From the IMG/VR virus record IMGVR_UViG_3300012018_000002, positions 1-64,000 of that record: 64,000 nt of DNA; one strand, 5' to 3'. Both the position numbers and the translations under genes were made by a program. Shown in pieces: positions 2,522-56,520 of this stretch. The DNA is from a virus (taxonomy: Duplodnaviria; Caudoviricetes). Position 1 is the stretch's first letter; every line of letters begins with the position of its first letter. Below the pieces are notes generated by a model that was given only the letters and a program-made list of their open reading frames with translations, did no database searches and was not told where the DNA came from.

Positions 2522-3268
2522 TTACCAGTCCCATTTTCTTGGAACTGAAAGATTATAAATATCTTCTATTTCTCCTTTTAAGAATTTAGAAATCTGGTCT
2601 CTTGTATACATTCTATAATTTGAAGCTGGAAAAGAACTTCCATAATTCCAATTTTTTCCTTTAGGTGTCCAACCTTTTTCACGATAATACTGTATATTAA
2701 ATTCTACTTCTGATAATTCAGATATTAAATCAGGTCTTAAAATTCTCTCATGAGTTACCATATGAGGTTTAACTCTAAGTTGAATCCAATAATCAGGAAT
2801 ATCTAATGAAGTATAAAATCTACAATTTTCATTATTACCTAAATAAAATACATCTTTTCTTATTTGAAAATGTTTTTTAACTTGTTCAGGTAAACTATGA
2901 TAAAATTCTAAATTGTATGTTTTATATTGAAAAAGTTGAGGGATACGTAATGATTTATTTTTTCTAGCTTCCTTCCATAAATCTTCTTTAATTGCACTCC
3001 ATGATTTAATCTTTCTACATAATCTAACAAGTCTAATATTATCAGTATGTTCAGGTTTAGTATGATTATCTATTAAATATTTAATTAAAGGATAGTCTTT
3101 TCTATTTTTAATATCATCTCTAACATCTACATAAATATCCCAACCTGATTGATATGGAACTTTAAGTTTTTGAAGAGGTGATTTTCTAATTTTATCAAAA
3201 AGAAAATCTCTTCTTCTACAAAGAGATAAAAACTCTTTTTCCCTTTTTATTTGTTTTTTTAAATTCAT
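2522..3268 (-). CDS. Hypothetical basic protein
   Basis: 248-aa K/R-rich ORF. Confidence 0.7.
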   Translation of the reverse strand: MNLKKQIKREKEFLSLCRRRDFLFDKIRKSPLQKLKVPYQSGWDIYVDVRDDIKNRKDYPLIKYLIDNHTKPEHTDNIRLVRLCRKIKSWSAIKEDLWKEARKNKSLRIPQLFQYKTYNLEFYHSLPEQVKKHFQIRKDVFYLGNNENCRFYTSLDIPDYWIQLRVKPHMVTHERILRPDLISELSEVEFNIQYYREKGWTPKGKNWNYGSSFPASNYRMYTRDQISKFLKGEIEDIYNLSVPRKWDW

Positions 3269-31086: not shown

Positions 31087-31166
31087 TAAGGAGAGAGAGA
31101 CTCGAACTCCCATGTTTTACCCTAGATTAAACGCATAATGCCTGTCTACCATTCCAGCATCTCCTT
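31087..31166 (-). ncRNA. tRNA-Leu-like RNA with non-canonical anticodon arm
   Basis: AAGGAGA/TCTCCTT acceptor, TGCTGGAATGGTAGACAG D-arm, GGGAG-TTCGAGT-CTCTC T-arm; no clean 5-bp/7-nt anticodon arm. Confidence 0.7.
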
Positions 31167-31170
31167 ATGT

Positions 31171-31204
31171 GCCACCCCACTTCAATATCCTTCGTTGGGG
31201 TGGC
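31171..31204. other. GC-rich hairpin closing the 31.2-31.6 kb RNA
   Basis: GCCACCCCA...TGGGGTGGC inverted repeat. Confidence 0.65.
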
Positions 31205-31214
31205 TTTTAATTTT

Positions 31215-31625
31215 TTTACAAATCAAAGTTGTAAATAAACTTTTTAGAACTTTATCATAAACTATAGCTAACTTAAACAGGTGCTCTGCCGACTGAGCTA
31301 ACTCGCCATAAAACCTTACAATCCTCATTCAAGGCAATGTAAGGTAGTAAATATTAAAAGTAAAGATTTGATTCTCAAATCTTGAGGTGAGTAAGGGAAT
31401 TGAACCCTTGACCTTCTGTCTTTTATTTTATGATGTTCTAATGGCTGAATATAAACCTAAAGCTTCTGATACAACACTAACTCCTGTCTAGGGCAGTTTA
31501 AATGCTAATTATCAGTCTGACGCTAAGGCTTTATCAGTAATTTTAAAACAAAGACCTGGTGAAATCAGTCACCATTAAGACTCTCCCATCGAACTCTAAG
31601 AGTTCTTATTGCACAGTCTTTGTTT
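31215..31625 (-). ncRNA. Structured RNA containing a circularly permuted tRNA module
   Basis: tRNA 3' half (31385-31420) is transcribed before the 5' half (31276-31307); linker hairpins; 5' multi-stem domain closed by AAACAAAGAC/GTCTTTGTTT. Confidence 0.7.
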
Positions 31626-40651: not shown

Positions 40652-40777
40652 AATATATTATTTTTAAATTAAATTATTAAAAAAGTAAAGCACGGAAAAA
40701 CACTTTACTCGATTTTTAACTAAACTATTTATTATCCCTTTTTAAATGTTTAAATAATTAATTAATATTCCGTTCAG

Positions 40778-41082
40778 TGGACCTGGTGAGATTTGAACTC
40801 ACGTCCAGACAAATTTTCATAAATAGATTTATTCATAGGCTTAGTTTATTCAGGGATAAACTGGGGTTTTTAAGGAATACTCCACCATCTTATTTTTAAT
40901 AGAATAAGAAAACTATTTTGTTAGACTAATTCAGCTTCCACTGCTAAGTTAGCATCAATATATGCTAACACATCGTCTGATGTTGTTGATGATAATTCGT
41001 CATCTAAAAGTTTGCTATTTTAAAGCATAGCTGCTCTACCTAATCTATTTACTGCTATATGCTGTCAATACCTGTCAAGCCC
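40778..41082 (-). ncRNA. ssrA: tmRNA; tag ORF 41001-40921 encodes (A)DELSSTTSDDVLAYIDANLAVEAELV*
   Basis: 5' GGGCTTGACAGGTATTGACAG; 3' GACGTGAGTTCAAATCTCACCAGGTCCA; G3.U70 Ala identity pair; resume codon after TTAGAT. Confidence 0.9.
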
Positions 41083-41092
41083 ATAATTAAAA

Positions 41093-41169
41093 GGTGGAAG
41101 AGGGATAGAATTGAACTACCAAGAAAAATCGCTATGATATTTCCAATTTTAAAAAACCTTTCCTCTTCC
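41093..41169 (-). ncRNA. tRNA-like RNA with 8-bp acceptor stem and no canonical D or anticodon arm
   Basis: GGAAGAGG/CCTCTTCC-ACC, T-arm GGTAG-TTCAATT-CTATC. Confidence 0.6.
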
Positions 41170-41181
41170 ATGTAAATAAAA

Positions 41182-41249
41182 ATAGTAAGGAAAAATCTTC
41201 AGAGTTTTATTTCACCAAAAGAAGTAACTCTAAACAACACCATTACTAT
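41182..41249 (-). ncRNA. Short Y RNA-like element (copy 1)
   Basis: TAGTAATGGTG..AGAGTTACTTC...AACTCT..TTTTCCTTACTA; same motif as the termini of the YrlA-like RNA. Confidence 0.7.
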
Positions 41250-41251
41250 AG

Positions 41252-41324
41252 TATCAGGTATGGGATTTGAACCCATGTGTTTACCGTGAAAGGGCAAAAT
41301 CCTGGACCACTAGATGAACCTGAC
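41252..41324 (-). tRNA. tRNA-Glu(UUC)
   Basis: GTCAGGT/ACCTGAT acceptor, TTGCC-CTTTCAC-GGTAA, ATGGG-TTCAAAT-CCCAT. Confidence 0.9.
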
Positions 41325-41326
41325 AT

Positions 41327-41803
41327 TTATAAATTTAATATTTTTCTGATTTCTGTAGAACTTTCAGGAACTATTACATCAGGTATAACAACTAATTGAC
41401 AACCAAATGTAACCACTTCTTTACCATATACTTTATTAGAGTTTTTAAACATCTTTATTGTGTTTTTATAAACAAAAGGATGCACAAAATCAGCAATACT
41501 TAAATAATTATACATAGTAACTGTTGAATCAACAGAAGTAAGAGATTCAATCATATATGCTCTATCTCTTTCATTAAAAATAGGATTTCTATTCTTATTA
41601 GTATTGATTAAATCATCAGAATCAACAAATACTACAAGAAAATCACATTCTCTTTTACATTTTTCAAGAAATAAAACATGTAATGGATGTAATAAATCAA
41701 AACATCCACTTGTTATACCTATTCTCATATTAGAATCAATTTTGAGCAGTGCTTGTAAACGTGCTCTCAGTATAATCATATCTTCTTGGTTTCTACAAAT
41801 CAT
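41327..41803 (-). CDS. Cytidylyltransferase-like (HxGH family, RfaE/TagD-like) nucleotidyltransferase
   Basis: TSGCFDLLHPLH, L.V.VDSD, RNPIF...R, SSTEIR. Confidence 0.82.
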   Translation of the reverse strand: MICRNQEDMIILRARLQALLKIDSNMRIGITSGCFDLLHPLHVLFLEKCKRECDFLVVFVDSDDLINTNKNRNPIFNERDRAYMIESLTSVDSTVTMYNYLSIADFVHPFVYKNTIKMFKNSNKVYGKEVVTFGCQLVVIPDVIVPESSTEIRKILNL

Positions 41804-41829: not shown

Positions 41830-41909
41830 AATAGAAGGAAAAGTAAATATAGCTTGTTTGAGCGAATTTATGAAATTTGCGAAGTAACTATATTAAACAC
41901 CATTCTATT
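41830..41909 (-). ncRNA. Short Y RNA-like element (copy 2)
   Basis: ATAGAATGGTG..ATATAGTTACTTC...AGCTATAT..TTTTCCTTCTAT with compensatory stem changes. Confidence 0.7.
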
Positions 41910-41911
41910 AG

Positions 41912-42037
41912 TAGCGTGTGAAGGATTCGAACCTCCATTTCTCGTTTAAGATACGAAGTAACTTTTCAAATCACCATCATTACTGAGGAAAAGTTAGAAA
42001 AGAAATTTTTAGCGTTCTGCCATTAAACTAACACGCT
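41912..42037 (-). ncRNA. tRNA scaffold whose anticodon arm is replaced by the permuted Y-motif stem (copy 3)
   Basis: AGCGTGT/ACACGCT acceptor, TAGTTTAATGGCAGAAC D-arm, GGAGG-TTCGAAT-CCTTC T-arm; insert CTTTTC..TTTTCCTCA-GTAA-TGATGGTG..GAAAAGTTACTTC. Confidence 0.75.
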
Positions 42038-42040
42038 ATA

Positions 42041-42194
42041 TGAATAAGGAAAGTTAAAAAGAGGCTTTTTTATAAACGTGTTTACCATTTCACCACCTGC
42101 CTCATTGTATTGAAGCAGGACAAGACTCGAACTTGTAAACTCTTACGAGTATTTATTCCGATTTAGAAGTAACTCTTCTTTACACCATTATTCA
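42041..42194 (-). ncRNA. YrlA-like Y RNA (copy 4)
   Basis: Terminal stem TGAATAATGG/CCTTATTCA; internal T-arm ACAAG-TTCGAGT-CTTGT, closed acceptor-like stem CCTGCTTCA/TGAGGCAGG, D-arm TGGTGAAATGGTAAACAC; begins about 5 nt after the Ro60 stop. Confidence 0.85.
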
Positions 42195-42199
42195 AATCT

Positions 42200-43603
42200 T
42201 TATTCCTGTTCTTCAAAGGTATTTGTAATACCTTCATAAACAGAAATATAAGTTAAGAAGTGTTCTGACCAACCTGAAATTTCAGCAGTCCAAACACCTT
42301 CATAATTAATACCATTTTTATGTGCTGACACATCAATAATATAATTAGCAATACCAAATGGATTAGGTTTTGTTTTTACACTATCCATATCCTGAGAATC
42401 ACTAAATACAATAATTCTATCAGGAGTATAATCAATATGTGATTTTATATACTCAAGACATTGGCGAGTAAATATACCACCTCCACCTAATTGAACTCTT
42501 TGTTTTTCAACTTGTTTAATTAAATCAAAACCAGAAGAAGGATTATCAATTCTTGATGTATTGTGTTTTTTGTTAAAACCACTACCTGCAGTGCACCACA
42601 CATCAATCCATTCACACTGATTAACACCTAATAAACACATTGCTTGAGCTACTTTTAATCTAGTATTAGTAGATTTAGAACTAATACCTGAACCCATACT
42701 ACCACTAACGTCAACCACAAAAAGTGTTTTACCAGGTAATTTTTTGAGATAAGAATAAGAAGTAATCATTCCTTGTTCTATTTCTCTCATATACTCTGGT
42801 GCATTTTCAGCAGCACTAAGAAAATTTAAAGGTAAAATCATATTACCTTTCATTTCTTTTAATGCCTTTTTAATTACATTTGAATCAACAAAGACATTTT
42901 TCATATTACGTAAATTACGTAATAATGCAAGTGCTCCAAGTTTATCATTACTAATTAATCTTTCCCAAGTAGCTTTTTTATCTTTACCTGCAGACAATGC
43001 AACTTCCCAAGTATCAGGAACTTTTAATTGTCTTTTTGCAATTCTATCAAATAGACTATATTCTTGAGGATTTCTTGCTTTTGGATGAACCAAAAATAAT
43101 ACATCTCTCAATTTATACTCACCATCTCTATCATATTTTGCAAACTGATATTCATCAAAATTGTGAAATGATTGAGCTAATCCTTTTTTAGCTGCAGCAG
43201 CCATTGGTCTTGCTTTCTTATTAGTGTCTTTCCAATAAATAGCACAGAAATCAGCTAACATATCTGCTCTTGTTATTACTTTTGGTAATAAATCTTTAAC
43301 ATATAATCTATGTGTATCATATTTACACATTTCAGATATGATAAACAAAGGCACATGTCTAAGCTTTTGAACAATTCTACATTCTTCTGCAATTTCTGCA
43401 ACTTTTTTTGCTTCTACTAATGGTATTAACTTAGCAATATTATCAGAGCTACCTGATTCATAAGCTAAATTTTCCCACAATAAACAAGCTAAGACTGCAC
43501 GTCTTAACTGATTTTCAGCAGTTTGTATTGCTGCTTTTGCACCATAACCACCTGCCAGTGTTTCAGCAGGTTTAGGTTTTACGTTAGGGTTTACTTTACT
43601 CAT
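42200..43603 (-). CDS. rsr: Ro60/TROVE-domain RNA-binding protein with vWA domain
   Basis: LR+ P motif, F.EYQFAKY, LRDVLFLVHPK, TWE..LS, ALLRNLRN, VDVSGSM MIDAS, FSD.Q, GWSE. Confidence 0.9.
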   Translation of the reverse strand: MSKVNPNVKPKPAETLAGGYGAKAAIQTAENQLRRAVLACLLWENLAYESGSSDNIAKLIPLVEAKKVAEIAEECRIVQKLRHVPLFIISEMCKYDTHRLYVKDLLPKVITRADMLADFCAIYWKDTNKKARPMAAAAKKGLAQSFHNFDEYQFAKYDRDGEYKLRDVLFLVHPKARNPQEYSLFDRIAKRQLKVPDTWEVALSAGKDKKATWERLISNDKLGALALLRNLRNMKNVFVDSNVIKKALKEMKGNMILPLNFLSAAENAPEYMREIEQGMITSYSYLKKLPGKTLFVVDVSGSMGSGISSKSTNTRLKVAQAMCLLGVNQCEWIDVWCTAGSGFNKKHNTSRIDNPSSGFDLIKQVEKQRVQLGGGGIFTRQCLEYIKSHIDYTPDRIIVFSDSQDMDSVKTKPNPFGIANYIIDVSAHKNGINYEGVWTAEISGWSEHFLTYISVYEGITNTFEEQE

Positions 43604-56208: not shown

Positions 56209-56364
56209 ATGGATGAAATAAAAACAAAACTATTGCAACAATTACATCGTGCAATAGAAAGTCTTGAAGGTCAAGATATTAACAATATTGAAGATGTAAA
56301 AAATTTTATGTTTATTATACAACAATCTAGTCAAATTATTAGTGTAATAAATAATTTAAACTAA
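56209..56364 (+). CDS. Small hypothetical protein (51 aa)
   Basis: MDEIKTKLLQQLHRAIESLEGQ...; fills a gap in the tRNA cluster. Confidence 0.5.
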   Translation: MDEIKTKLLQQLHRAIESLEGQDINNIEDVKNFMFIIQQSSQIISVINNLN

Positions 56365-56438
56365 GTGGTGTTTGAAAGAGTTACTTCAACTTTTCTGAAC
56401 AGAGTTACCAAATAAACTCTTTCTATTTTTCCCTTAGT
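56360..56438 (+). ncRNA. Short Y RNA-like element (copy 5) in the late tRNA cluster
   Basis: ACTAAGTGGTG..GAAAGAGTTACTTC...AACTCTTTC..TTTTCCCTTAGT. Confidence 0.7.
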
Positions 56439-56442
56439 ATTT

Positions 56443-56515
56443 AGTTCTGTAGCCCAACGGAAGAGGCACATGCCTTAGGAGCATGATAGTAAGAGTTCGA
56501 GTCTCTTTAGAACTA
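56443..56515 (+). tRNA. tRNA-Leu(UAG) with short variable loop
   Basis: CATGC-CTTAGGA-GCATG, AAGAG-TTCGAGT-CTCTT. Confidence 0.85.
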
Positions 56516-56520
56516 CAATT

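What the first reader, a model, noticed from the sequence alone, without database searches (positions are those of the whole stretch)
41912..42037. Non-permuted tRNA whose anticodon arm is the Y-motif stem: an inside-out YrlA
Seen: normal acceptor ends, D-arm and T-arm. Where the anticodon arm belongs, the two motif halves appear in reversed order (TTTTCC half first, ATGGTG/GTTACTTC half second), capped by TCA-GTAA-TGA. It is a circular permutant of the adjacent YrlA-like RNA, 3 nt away. Inference: RNase P/Z processing and CCA addition could give a Ro-bound RNA with a free, possibly chargeable acceptor end. It may also be an evolutionary intermediate between tRNA and Y RNA.
Basis: partly seen in the sequence, partly recalled or inferred. 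Interest (0 to 1): 0.8.

Follow-up and report, generated by a model that had tools for sequence, protein, structure and literature searches.

The report
Phage Ro60 partner RNA shaped like tRNA
A crAss-like gut phage encodes, just after its Ro60-type gene, a small RNA built as a complete tRNA with normal free ends and the Ro60-binding "Y RNA" hairpin placed in its anticodon region; this layout recurs in many phages, including the lab phage crAss001, and I found no description of it in the papers I could search.

Summary
Window 41912-42037 (- strand) scores as a full-length tRNA (Rfam 43.7 bits, cut-off 29). It has a 7-bp acceptor stem, D arm and T arm. Between D and T arms lies the Y-RNA module in reversed order (..UUUUCC-UCA-GUAA-UGA-U-GGUG..GUUACUUC). 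It sits 163 nt downstream of a TROVE/Ro60 gene, 3 nt after a YrlA-type (permuted) RNA and 2 nt before a short Y-like RNA.

The layout is conserved. I found 25 such elements with 17 different acceptor sequences in 20 of 84 viral TROVE loci, including two unannotated copies in crAss001. In 21 aligned copies, 96.5% of pair cells are standard pairs, 22 of 27 pairs show compensatory changes, and the tertiary 15:48 pair covaries. In 20 of 21 copies a C follows the discriminator, and 6 encode full CCA, matching the local tRNA genes.

Best reading: a Ro60-bound Y RNA with a non-permuted tRNA body, matured by RNase P, 3' processing and CCA addition. Binding, processing and charging are all inferred. 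"Evolutionary intermediate" is not supported; the form looks derived and phage-restricted.

The scan read this stretch twice, and on other DNA it noted analogous handle-plus-whole-tRNA RNAs beside DUF2828-type Ro60-like genes. Verdict: new variant of a known kind.

The parts
42200..43603 (-). TROVE/Ro60-type gene (467 aa, with DxSGSM MIDAS motif)
   Evidence: Pfam TROVE 63.3 bits. A profile of it and 7 relatives matches Thermus phage phiLo Ro60 (9KOP/9L5Y, E 3.9e-37, residues 19-464) and Xenopus Ro60 1YVP (E 3.7e-4). crAss001 Gp96 is annotated as a TROVE protein.
42041..42194 (-). RNA A: YrlA-type (circularly permuted) Y RNA. Order: stem1, U, GGUG, stem2, UUACUUC, T arm, closed 9-bp acceptor hairpin, D arm, stem2', CC, stem1'
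   Evidence: Read; fold; motif scan with a 7-bp closing stem 137 nt apart. It starts 5 nt after the TROVE stop codon.
41912..42037 (-). RNA B (the finding): tRNA-shaped Y RNA with free acceptor ends
   Evidence: Rfam tRNA 43.7 bits; own model R1 119.9 bits, the only strong match in the 112.8-kb phage record; homologues covary.
42031..42037 (-). Acceptor stem, 5' strand AGCGUGU (pairs with 41913-41919)
   Evidence: 7/7 pairs here; 17 different acceptor sequences among homologues keep 6 or 7 of the 7 pairs (7/7 in nearly all); every acceptor pair shows compensatory change.
42014..42028 (-). D arm (GUUU-AAUGGCA-GAAC) with A14, A15, G18, G19, A21
   Evidence: A15 here goes with U48; the 15:48 pair is G:C in 13, A:U in 7 and G:U in 1 of the homologues.
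41962..42002 (-). Y-module hairpin in reversed order: stem2' (CUUUUC), spacer UAACUUUU, CC, UCA-GUAA-UGA cap, bulged U, GG, UG AUUU, stem2 (GAAAAG)
   Evidence: The CC/GG pairs covary (CG 16, UG 4, AU 1; CG 16, UA 5). The first cap pair covaries (CG 12, AU 4, UA 4, GC 1). Stem2 has 5 of 8 pairs with compensatory change.
41955..41961 (-). Conserved UUACUUC junction motif
   Evidence: Invariant UACUUC in alignment A3. The same motif is present in rsr-linked RNAs of Bradyrhizobium and other bacteria.
41941..41957 (-). Hairpin UUCGU-AUCUUAA-ACGAG in anticodon-arm register (the 'V arm' of YrlA nomenclature); loop reads like an anticodon loop with CUU
   Evidence: In the MFE structure; pair probabilities 0.4-0.67. 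The register to the T loop is 26-27 nt in 24 copies. In 34 sequences 91.8% of cells are paired, and the innermost pair is CG 19, UA 8, AU 4, GC 3.
41920..41936 (-). T arm GGAGG-UUCGAAU-CCUUC
   Evidence: 4 of 5 pairs with compensatory change.
41911..41912 (-). Discriminator A (41912) and encoded C74 (41911); no full CCA
41830..41909 (-). RNA C: short Y-like RNA whose closing stem is followed by a U run
   Evidence: 7-bp closing stem, 1-nt bulge.
41182..41249 (-). RNA D: short Y-like RNA that starts 1-2 nt after tRNA-Glu (41251-41324)
56360..56438 (+). Fifth short Y-like RNA, ending 4 nt before tRNA-Leu (56443-56516)
   Evidence: Motif scan, (6-bp closing stem, 1-nt bulge); tRNA coordinates.

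Best explanation
RNA B is a partner (Y) RNA of the phage's Ro60-type protein, and its tRNA-like effector domain is not circularly permuted. The gene is a complete cloverleaf: 7-bp acceptor stem with free ends, D arm, an anticodon-arm-sized hairpin, a short variable loop and a T arm. The Ro60-binding module (bulged U, GG/CC pairs, GGUG strand, second stem, UUACUUC) emerges as a closed hairpin between the D arm and that hairpin.

Proposed mechanism. The TROVE gene and RNAs A, B and C are transcribed together. Host RNase P cuts at B's 5' end, which also trims A's 3' end. tRNA 3' processing cuts at or after B's discriminator, which also frees C's 5' end. The host CCA-adding enzyme completes the encoded C74 to CCA. 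The Ro60 ring then binds the closed hairpin and so carries an L-shaped tRNA body with a free NCCA end. That body serves as a handle or decoy for tRNA-recognising factors.

Shown: sequence anatomy, conservation, covariation of all helices and of the 15:48 tertiary pair, linkage to TROVE genes on the same strand, and tRNA-gene-like 3' flanks. Inferred: co-transcription, processing, CCA addition, Ro60 binding and the effector role.
For: - tRNA model match.
- The TROVE gene lies 163 nt upstream on the same strand, and its profile matches phiLo Ro60, which binds Y-like RNAs experimentally (PMC12135203).
- The motif family GG[C/U]G(A/U)AG...UUACUUC is the one next to rsr genes in bacteria and includes exact GNCGAA-type versions (GGCGAAG) (PMC4201824). 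About 209 copies lie on the TROVE strand and 21 on the other.
- 25 true B-type elements occur in 20 of 84 viral TROVE loci, with 17 acceptor sequences. Two are in crAss001.
- Alignment of 21 copies: 96.5% of cells paired against about 45% when partners are slid, 22 of 27 pairs with compensatory change, 0 of 500 shuffles as good.
- The 15:48 pair is G:C 13, A:U 7, G:U 1.
- C follows the discriminator in 20 of 21 copies and full CCA in 6 of 21. All 10 window tRNA genes also have C, and L047's tRNA genes encode CCA as its B-type does.
- At least 9 of 21 B-types are followed within 1-8 nt by the closing stem of another Y-like RNA. In the window every Y-like RNA abuts a tRNA-shaped element.
- Precedent: M. 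smegmatis YrlA is cut by RNase P in its acceptor loop and receives CCA in vivo (PMC4201824).
- Permuted (A) and non-permuted (B) forms rarely share a locus: 26 and 20 loci, 3 with both, about 6 expected if independent, so the trend is weak. It would fit one form replacing the other.
Against: - There is no transcript, end-mapping, binding or modification datum.
- The strict YrlA motif GNCGAA is not met in this copy (GGUGAU), and Rfam's YrlA model RF02553 finds nothing in the phage at E<=10.
- Thermodynamic folding of this AU-rich copy prefers a different partner for the second stem and does not recover the D arm or the CC/GG pairs: homology structure -24.8 against MFE -30.1 kcal/mol.
- The cap stem is only 3 bp, and 1-2 bp in some relatives.
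- Alignment A5 was fitted to my model's structure, which favours that structure.
- No promoter or terminator signal stood out.
- The phage record carries no CCA-adding enzyme or RtcB, so all maturation would depend on the host.
Confidence: 0.65

Rival explanations
1. Processing punctuation only. The tRNA shape exists to recruit RNase P and the 3' processing enzymes so that the neighbouring Y RNAs (A's 3' end, C's 5' end) are released, as with tRNA-linked small RNAs. The released B has no role of its own.
For: Gaps of 2-3 nt to both neighbours. The B-then-Y arrangement recurs in at least 9 of 21 relatives. Other Y-like RNAs in the window abut ordinary tRNAs (tRNA-Glu then D; fifth copy then tRNA-Leu).
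Against: An ordinary tRNA would suffice, as it does for D and the fifth copy. The Y hairpin inside B keeps the bulged U, the covarying CC/GG pairs and UACUUC across distant phages, which implies selection on B's own Ro-type module. This idea is compatible with the best explanation as a second job.
Confidence: 0.15
2. A working, chargeable tRNA (here reading as tRNA-Lys CUU through the loop AUCUUAA) that carries an extra Ro60-binding arm, delivering Ro60 to synthetases, EF-Tu or ribosomes, or protected by Ro60.
For: Complete cloverleaf register: 5-bp stem, 7-nt loop with U33 and A37-A38, 4-nt variable loop. tRNA-like 3' flank and encoded CCA in relatives. Tertiary 15:48 covariation.
Against: Near-identical relatives differ in the 'anticodon' (L016 CCU against L028 CUU) with the same acceptor stem, and others lack U33 or lack the hairpin altogether (L060, L091, crAss001). 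No isotype affinity of the body: best about 75% identity. No G3:U70. A roughly 45-nt helix at the 26/27 hinge would probably clash with the ribosome (inference). ARAGORN does not accept it.
Confidence: 0.07
3. A dead tRNA gene disrupted by insertion of a Y-RNA element, or an artefact of two tandem permuted Y RNAs read across their junction.
For: Tandem permuted copies do mimic this order and gave false model hits (L080 2659-2794, Bradyrhizobium and L150 loci).
Against: In the window the acceptor strands pair 7/7 with each other, and the flanks are the closing stems of other RNAs, not halves of acceptor hairpins. 17 acceptor variants keep pairing, and all helices covary, which a pseudogene would not maintain.
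Confidence: 0.03

Closest known systems
YrlA (Y RNA-like A) of bacteria and mycobacteriophages (Chen et al. 2014, PMC4201824; Wang et al. 2018, 10.1101/312249)
   Same: Encoded next to a Ro60 orthologue on the same strand. Same conserved strand (GG[C/U]G(A/U)AG, a relative of GNCGAAN0-1G), same UUACUUC junction, same hairpin plus AGGUC-type loop plus T arm register, and D and T arms with tRNA tertiary nucleotides.
   Different: In YrlA the 5' and 3' ends lie in the Ro60-binding stem and the acceptor stem is a closed hairpin (a circularly permuted tRNA). Here the acceptor stem carries the ends and the Ro60-type stem is closed by a loop. Wang et al. state that all characterised Y RNAs have the Ro60 site in the stem formed by the two ends. 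Rfam RF02553 does not match.
[quoted passage not shown] 2014)
   Same: Ends up with a free tRNA-like acceptor end bearing CCA on a Ro60-bound RNA.
   Different: There it is a two-piece RNA produced by cutting a permuted precursor. Here the free ends are hard-wired in the gene and the RNA stays in one piece.
D. radiodurans Yrn1
   Same: Y RNA with partial tRNA likeness; Ro60-bound; tethers an effector (PNPase).
   Different: In Yrn1 the Ro-binding stem takes the place of the acceptor stem and an anticodon-like arm is present (PMC4201824). Here the acceptor stem is genuine and free.
Thermus phage phiLo Ro60 with Yrl1/Yrl2 (PMC12135203)
   Same: Phage TROVE protein (closest solved relative) with Y-like RNAs encoded beside it.
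   Different: Yrl1/2 are described as stem-bulge-stem RNAs closed by their ends, with no tRNA body.
tRNA-like processing signals (mascRNA of MALAT1, tRNA-linked small RNAs) and tmRNA
   Same: A tRNA shape used to recruit RNase P, 3' processing and CCA addition for a non-decoding RNA.
   Different: Those carry no Ro60 module. tmRNA is alanine-charged through G3:U70, which is absent here.
Handle-tagged tRNA-mimic RNAs beside DUF2828-type Ro60-like phage genes
   Same: A shared protein-binding handle joined to anticodon arms or whole tRNA bodies, beside a Ro60-shaped phage protein.
   Different: Different protein family and different handle (stem plus ACAGCAA). I did not test those loci.

Membership tests
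Y RNA / YrlA class (Chen et al. 2014) | Encoded within about 4 kb of a Ro60 orthologue, on the same strand | tested here: met
   163 nt downstream of the TROVE stop codon, same strand. The same holds for the homologues in 20 viral loci.
Y RNA / YrlA class (Chen et al. 2014) | [quoted passage not shown] | tested here: not met
   This copy reads GGUGAUUUG, and the motif is internal, not near the 5' end. Relatives grade from GGCGAAG (L060, L061, L091) through GGUGAAG and GGUGUAG to this form, so it is a diverged version of the motif.
Y RNA / YrlA class (Chen et al. 2014) | [quoted passage not shown] | tested here: not met
   The ends lie in a 7-bp acceptor stem; the Ro-type stem is closed by UCA-GUAA-UGA. 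This is the defining difference.
Y RNA / YrlA class (Chen et al. 2014) | tRNA-like domain with conserved T and D arms and tRNA tertiary pairs | tested here: met
   Rfam tRNA 43.7 bits; the 15:48 pair covaries.
Y RNA / YrlA class (Chen et al. 2014) | Physically bound by the Ro60 orthologue | not testable with these tools
   Needs immunoprecipitation or a gel-shift assay.
Rfam RF02553 (YrlA) | Covariance-model score at or above 69 bits | tested here: not met
   No match at E<=10 anywhere in the 112.8-kb record. The model also misses the rsr-linked RNAs of Bradyrhizobium and others at its cut-off, so it is narrow.
tRNA (Rfam RF00005) | Covariance-model score at or above 29 bits over the whole model | tested here: met
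   43.7 bits, model positions 1-71.
tRNA (functional, decoding) | Contiguous anticodon arm with a conserved anticodon; accepted by tRNA finders | tested here: not met
   ARAGORN gives no call. A 54-nt stretch (positions 27-80: spacer, Y hairpin, UUAC) separates the D arm from the anticodon-arm-sized hairpin. The 'anticodon' differs between near-identical relatives, and the hairpin is absent in others.
tRNA (functional, decoding) | Aminoacylation | not testable with these tools
   Only G3:U70 could be checked, and it is absent in all 21 copies.
Ro60/TROVE protein (the partner) | TROVE domain plus vWA/MIDAS; similarity to solved Ro60 structures | tested here: met
   Pfam PF05731 63.3 bits; DxSGSM invariant; profile hit to 9KOP/9L5Y at E 3.9e-37 and to 1YVP at E 3.7e-4.

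The most novel reading that the evidence does not exclude
The free NCCA end is used. The RNA would be CCA-tailed and either aminoacylated or captured by tRNA-binding host factors, such as synthetase, EF-Tu, CCA enzyme, anticodon nucleases or tRNA-targeting defence proteins. A Ro60 ring would then be delivered to, or act as a decoy or sensor for, the host's tRNA machinery during infection. This would be a Y RNA working as a true tRNA impostor rather than a closed mimic. The anticodon-like loops of this RNA family (C/A-U-NNN-A-A; here CUU, in relatives CCU, UCU, UUU) would then be baits for anticodon-directed enzymes.
Probability: 0.12. Interest if true: 0.85.

Novelty: new variant of a known kind. 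Interest (0 to 1): 0.6.

Why it matters
Y RNAs are defined as RNAs whose two ends pair to form the Ro60-binding stem. Bacterial YrlA is viewed as a closed, circularly permuted tRNA mimic whose effector is still unknown. A conserved form with the opposite connectivity has genuine tRNA ends, probably a CCA tail, and the Ro60 site on an internal hairpin.

This has three consequences:
- The closed end of the Ro stem would be dispensable for the module.
- The tRNA-maturation machinery becomes tied directly to Y-RNA biogenesis.
- The question "what does the tRNA-like domain of Y RNAs do?" becomes testable in a culturable system, because crAss001 carries two unannotated copies next to Gp96, an early gene.

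It also explains part of the unannotated 0.9-kb gap after the TROVE gene in crAss-like gut phages. Finally, it warns annotators that tandem permuted Y RNAs and these elements confuse tRNA finders.

Tried and rejected
- **Intron reading.** The extra sequence is about 55 nt, far below group I size. Removing it does not leave a normal anticodon arm in relatives such as L060, L091 and crAss001, and the insert covaries as a hairpin. Rejected.
- **Tandem-junction artefact.** This is real for L080, L150 and the Bradyrhizobium loci, where my model scored 30-71 bits across junctions of two permuted copies. I excluded it for the window and 24 other elements by requiring acceptor pairing and by reading the flanks.
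- **Rfam YrlA (RF02553).** No hit in the phage. It is uninformative, because it also misses alphaproteobacterial rsr-linked RNAs.
- **Isotype assignment of the tRNA body.** The best match is only about 75% identity (the window's own tRNA-Val), with no consistent isotype among relatives.
- **Exact-pattern scan of viral contigs for the reversed-order hairpin.**
  - The pattern is too weak: 65 of 80 stretches have no TROVE gene and look like chance matches, only 2 of them with a T loop downstream.
  - Of 13 matches followed by a T loop, 11 lie in TROVE-bearing stretches. The TROVE gene is on the match's strand in 14 of the 15 TROVE-bearing stretches.
- **Promoter/terminator scan.** Nothing above shuffles.
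- **blastn of the RNA cluster against GenBank phages.** Only a 41-nt match in Rhizobium phages.
- **Phage-encoded CCA-adding enzyme or RtcB.** None found in the record, which is estimated 64% complete. The cytidylyltransferase-like ORF 41327-41803 is PF01467, not a CCA enzyme.
- **Reviews.** Two reviews (PMC10870794, PMC6047535) were not held, so the novelty claim rests on the papers I could read.

Full report
**Setting.** The window comes from a crAss-like phage. DNA around the finding matches Bacteroides phage crAss001 and its relatives (Steigviridae) at 66-75% identity, over a gene annotated as a TROVE-domain protein. The whole record is 112.8 kb.

ORF 42200-43603 (- strand, 467 aa) has a Pfam TROVE domain (63.3 bits) and an invariant DxSGSM MIDAS motif. 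A profile of it and seven relatives matches the solved Ro60 of Thermus phage phiLo (9KOP/9L5Y, E 3.9e-37, nearly full length) and Xenopus Ro60 (1YVP, E 3.7e-4). The phiLo protein binds two Y-like RNAs encoded beside it (PMC12135203).

Downstream on the same strand lie, in order:
- RNA A (42194-42041)
- RNA B, the finding (42037-41912)
- RNA C (41909-41830)
- a cytidylyltransferase-like ORF
- tRNA-Glu
- RNA D (41249-41182)
- a tRNA-like element
- a tmRNA

**The observation.** Rfam's tRNA model matches 42037-41912 end to end at 43.7 bits (cut-off 29), with 68 nt where 13 positions of the anticodon arm belong. ARAGORN does not call it.

The sequence shows a perfect 7-bp acceptor stem, a D arm, a T arm and discriminator A. 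The insert reads UUUUCC / UCA-GUAA-UGA / U-GGUG / 9 nt / GUUACUUC. AUGGUG-N9-GUUACUUC occurs four times within 1 kb on this strand, with none expected.

In A, C and D the GGUG half comes first and the UUUCC half last, and a 7-bp stem joins the two ends with a 1-nt bulge. A additionally contains a T arm, a closed 9-bp acceptor-like hairpin and a D arm in that order, which is the YrlA layout of Chen et al. 2014 (PMC4201824). B has the same modules with the opposite connectivity. A ends 3 nt before B, and C begins 2 nt after B's discriminator.

**What the module is.**
- Across 84 viral TROVE loci the motif GG[C/U]G-N-[A/U]UAC[U/A]UC occurs about 209 times on the TROVE strand and 21 times on the other.
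- It nearly always comes with a single bulged nucleotide before GG and a CC partner.
- Many copies read GGCGAAG, an exact instance of the GNCGAAN0-1G motif that Chen et al. proposed as the Rsr recognition element. The window's GGUGAU is a diverged form.
- The same GGUGAAG...UUACUUC core sits next to chromosomal rsr genes of Bradyrhizobium, Caulobacterales, Acidobacteria and others.

So this is the canonical YrlA-type Ro60 module, although Rfam's own YrlA model (RF02553) matches neither the phage nor those bacterial loci at its cut-off.

**Is the non-permuted form real?** I built a covariance model from five such elements and searched the TROVE loci. One trap appeared. Two permuted copies in tandem contain the non-permuted order across their junction, and the model scored such junctions (L080 2659-2794; Bradyrhizobium and L150 loci).

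I therefore accepted only hits whose 5' and 3' strands pair with each other in at least 6 of 7 positions and that contain a T loop and the motif. This left 25 elements in 20 of the 84 loci, with 17 different acceptor sequences. They include two copies in crAss001 (MH675552 96453-96596 and 96203-96341), inside a 0.9-kb gap that carries no annotation.

In an alignment of 21 of them:
- 96.5% of pair cells are standard pairs, against about 45% when partners are slid.
- 22 of 27 pairs show changes on both sides, and no shuffle of 500 does as well.
- All five helices covary, including the CC/GG pairs (to CU/AG and AU/AU) and the first pair of the cap stem.
- The tertiary Levitt pair 15:48 is G:C in 13, A:U in 7 (the window among them) and G:U in 1, which argues for a true L-shaped fold.

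In the whole phage record there is one such element.

After UUAC, positions 81-97 of B form UUCGU-AUCUUAA-ACGAG. This hairpin is followed by a 4-nt variable loop and the T arm, which is exactly the register of a tRNA anticodon arm.
- The distance from UUAC to the T loop peaks at 26-27 nt in 24 copies.
- In 34 sequences from phages and bacteria the 5-bp stem is 91.8% paired, and its innermost pair is C-G 19, U-A 8, A-U 4, G-C 3.
- The loops read like anticodon loops: C/A-U-NNN-A-A, for example CUGUUAA, CUGAUAA and CUUGUAA.

I take this hairpin to be what the YrlA papers call the V arm. By size and by the AGGUC-type loop that follows, it looks like the anticodon arm of a class I tRNA, with the Ro60 stem attached at the 26/27 junction.

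B-types are not uniform here. The window, L016, L028, L011 and L061 have this hairpin beside the Y hairpin. L060, L091 and L026 instead keep a 4-5-bp anticodon stem that encloses the Y hairpin, and L011's other copy (3131-3267) can be read the same way (4 of 5 pairs).

**Evidence on maturation.**
- In 20 of 21 elements the base after the discriminator is C.
- Six elements (at least four lineages) encode full CCA. I estimate chance for that at below 1e-4.
- All ten ordinary tRNA genes of the window also have discriminator plus C, without full CCA.
- In L047 the ordinary tRNA genes encode CCA, as its B-type does.

The elements therefore follow the tRNA-gene convention of their own genome.

At least nine are followed within 1-8 nt by the closing stem of another Y-like RNA. 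In the window, D starts right after tRNA-Glu, and a fifth copy (56360-56438, + strand) ends 4 nt before tRNA-Leu. This points to tRNA-type punctuation of a Y-RNA/tRNA transcript. The phage record encodes no CCA-adding enzyme or RtcB, so host enzymes would act.

The precedent is M. smegmatis YrlA, which RNase P cuts in its acceptor loop and which then receives CCA in vivo (PMC4201824). Here the same end state is written into the gene.

**Distribution and origin.** On a TROVE protein tree the B-type occurs in both major, well-supported clades. It needs at least 6 changes on strongly supported branches. Absence is overestimated, because loci reach only 3 kb from the gene (one element is cut by a locus end).

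Permuted and non-permuted forms share a locus in only 3 cases (26 and 20 loci respectively; about 6 expected if independent).

Among 80 TROVE loci from prokaryotic genome assemblies, true B-types occur only on two short, phage-like MAG contigs. Chromosomal rsr loci have permuted copies, often in tandem.

The form thus looks phage-restricted and derived, not ancestral. A plausible route is duplication of a permuted copy followed by loss of the outer halves. In L150 the acceptor halves of neighbouring copies already pair 6/7 across the junction.

An exact-pattern scan for the reversed-order hairpin was too unspecific to add much. Still, 11 of the 13 matches followed by a T loop lie in TROVE-bearing stretches.

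**Mechanism.** The best-supported reading is a Ro60-partner RNA with a non-permuted tRNA body, released by RNase P and tRNA 3' processing and finished with CCA. Its processing also trims its Y-RNA neighbours.

What the tRNA body does is not known, for this RNA or for YrlA. A decoding role is unlikely, for these reasons:
- The anticodon-like triplet changes between near-identical relatives (CCU against CUU).
- Some relatives lack U33 or the hairpin.
- There is no isotype affinity.
- There is no G3:U70.

A role as handle, decoy or sensor for tRNA-recognising factors remains open.

**Weak points.**
- There are no expression or binding data.
- This AU-rich copy does not fold into the homology structure by energy alone (-24.8 against -30.1 kcal/mol).
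- The covariation alignment was fitted to my model.

[quoted passage not shown] I found no paper on Y RNAs of crAss-like phages. Two reviews were not available.

Earlier notes of this scan describe analogous handle-plus-whole-tRNA RNAs beside a different Ro60-like family on other phage DNA. The general theme has therefore been seen in the scan, but not this TROVE/YrlA-module form.

Noticed in passing
L001 2591-2734 and 2341-2479 (- strand) = MH675552 96453-96596 and 96203-96341: crAss001, a cultured model phage, carries two unannotated tRNA-shaped Y RNAs (acceptors GGAGGGA and GGGGAUG) in the 0.9-kb gap after its TROVE gene Gp96. A short Y-like RNA with AG/CU in place of GG/CC ends 3 nt before the first one.
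   Followed up: partly
window 41096-41169 (- strand): tRNA-like element with a long acceptor stem and a T arm but no normal D or anticodon arm (weak tRNA-Sec model hit, 25.7 bits, below cut-off), lying between RNA D and the tmRNA.
   Followed up: no
window 40775-41082 (- strand): Phage-encoded tmRNA (Rfam 52.9 bits) in the same RNA island. tmRNA hits also lie near the TROVE gene in L012, L013, L018 and L080.
   Followed up: no
window 41327-41803 (- strand): 158-aa cytidylyltransferase-like ORF (PF01467, 42.2 bits) between RNA C and tRNA-Glu. It is not a CCA-adding enzyme family, and its role is unknown.
   Followed up: partly
window 56360-56438 (+ strand): Fifth short Y-like RNA in the distant tRNA cluster, ending 4 nt before tRNA-Leu, so RNase P cleavage of the tRNA would set its 3' end.
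   Followed up: partly
L080 2577-2866; L164, L150 and other rsr loci: Tandem permuted YrlA-type RNAs are common. Their junctions imitate a tRNA with an insert and fool covariance models. In L150 the neighbouring acceptor halves pair 6/7 across the junction.
   Followed up: yes
A7 alignment (34 loci, e.g. L156 2633-2675, L075 1624-1666): The hairpin between UUAC and the T arm of YrlA-type RNAs has anticodon-arm dimensions and anticodon-loop-like loops (C/A-U-NNN-A-A) in phages and bacteria alike. A second loop class reads N-U-N-GGGA.
   Followed up: partly
L132, L133, L136, L156, L164 and others: Rfam RF02553 (YrlA) does not reach its cut-off on rsr-linked YrlA-type RNAs of Bradyrhizobium, Devosia and others, so the curated model covers only part of the class.
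   Followed up: partly
L023 5067-5127; L034 5701-5789: A Pistol ribozyme hit (57.9 bits) and a C4 antisense RNA hit (62.3 bits) lie within 1-1.5 kb of TROVE genes on two viral contigs.
   Followed up: no
window 31087-31307 (- strand): Weak hit of my model (24.5 bits, 221 nt) in a region that another reader flagged as holding a permuted tRNA module. Acceptor pairing is only 5/7.
   Followed up: no
window tRNA genes: All ten canonical tRNA genes of the window have C right after the discriminator but none has full CCA, a conserved partial 3' tail.
   Followed up: partly
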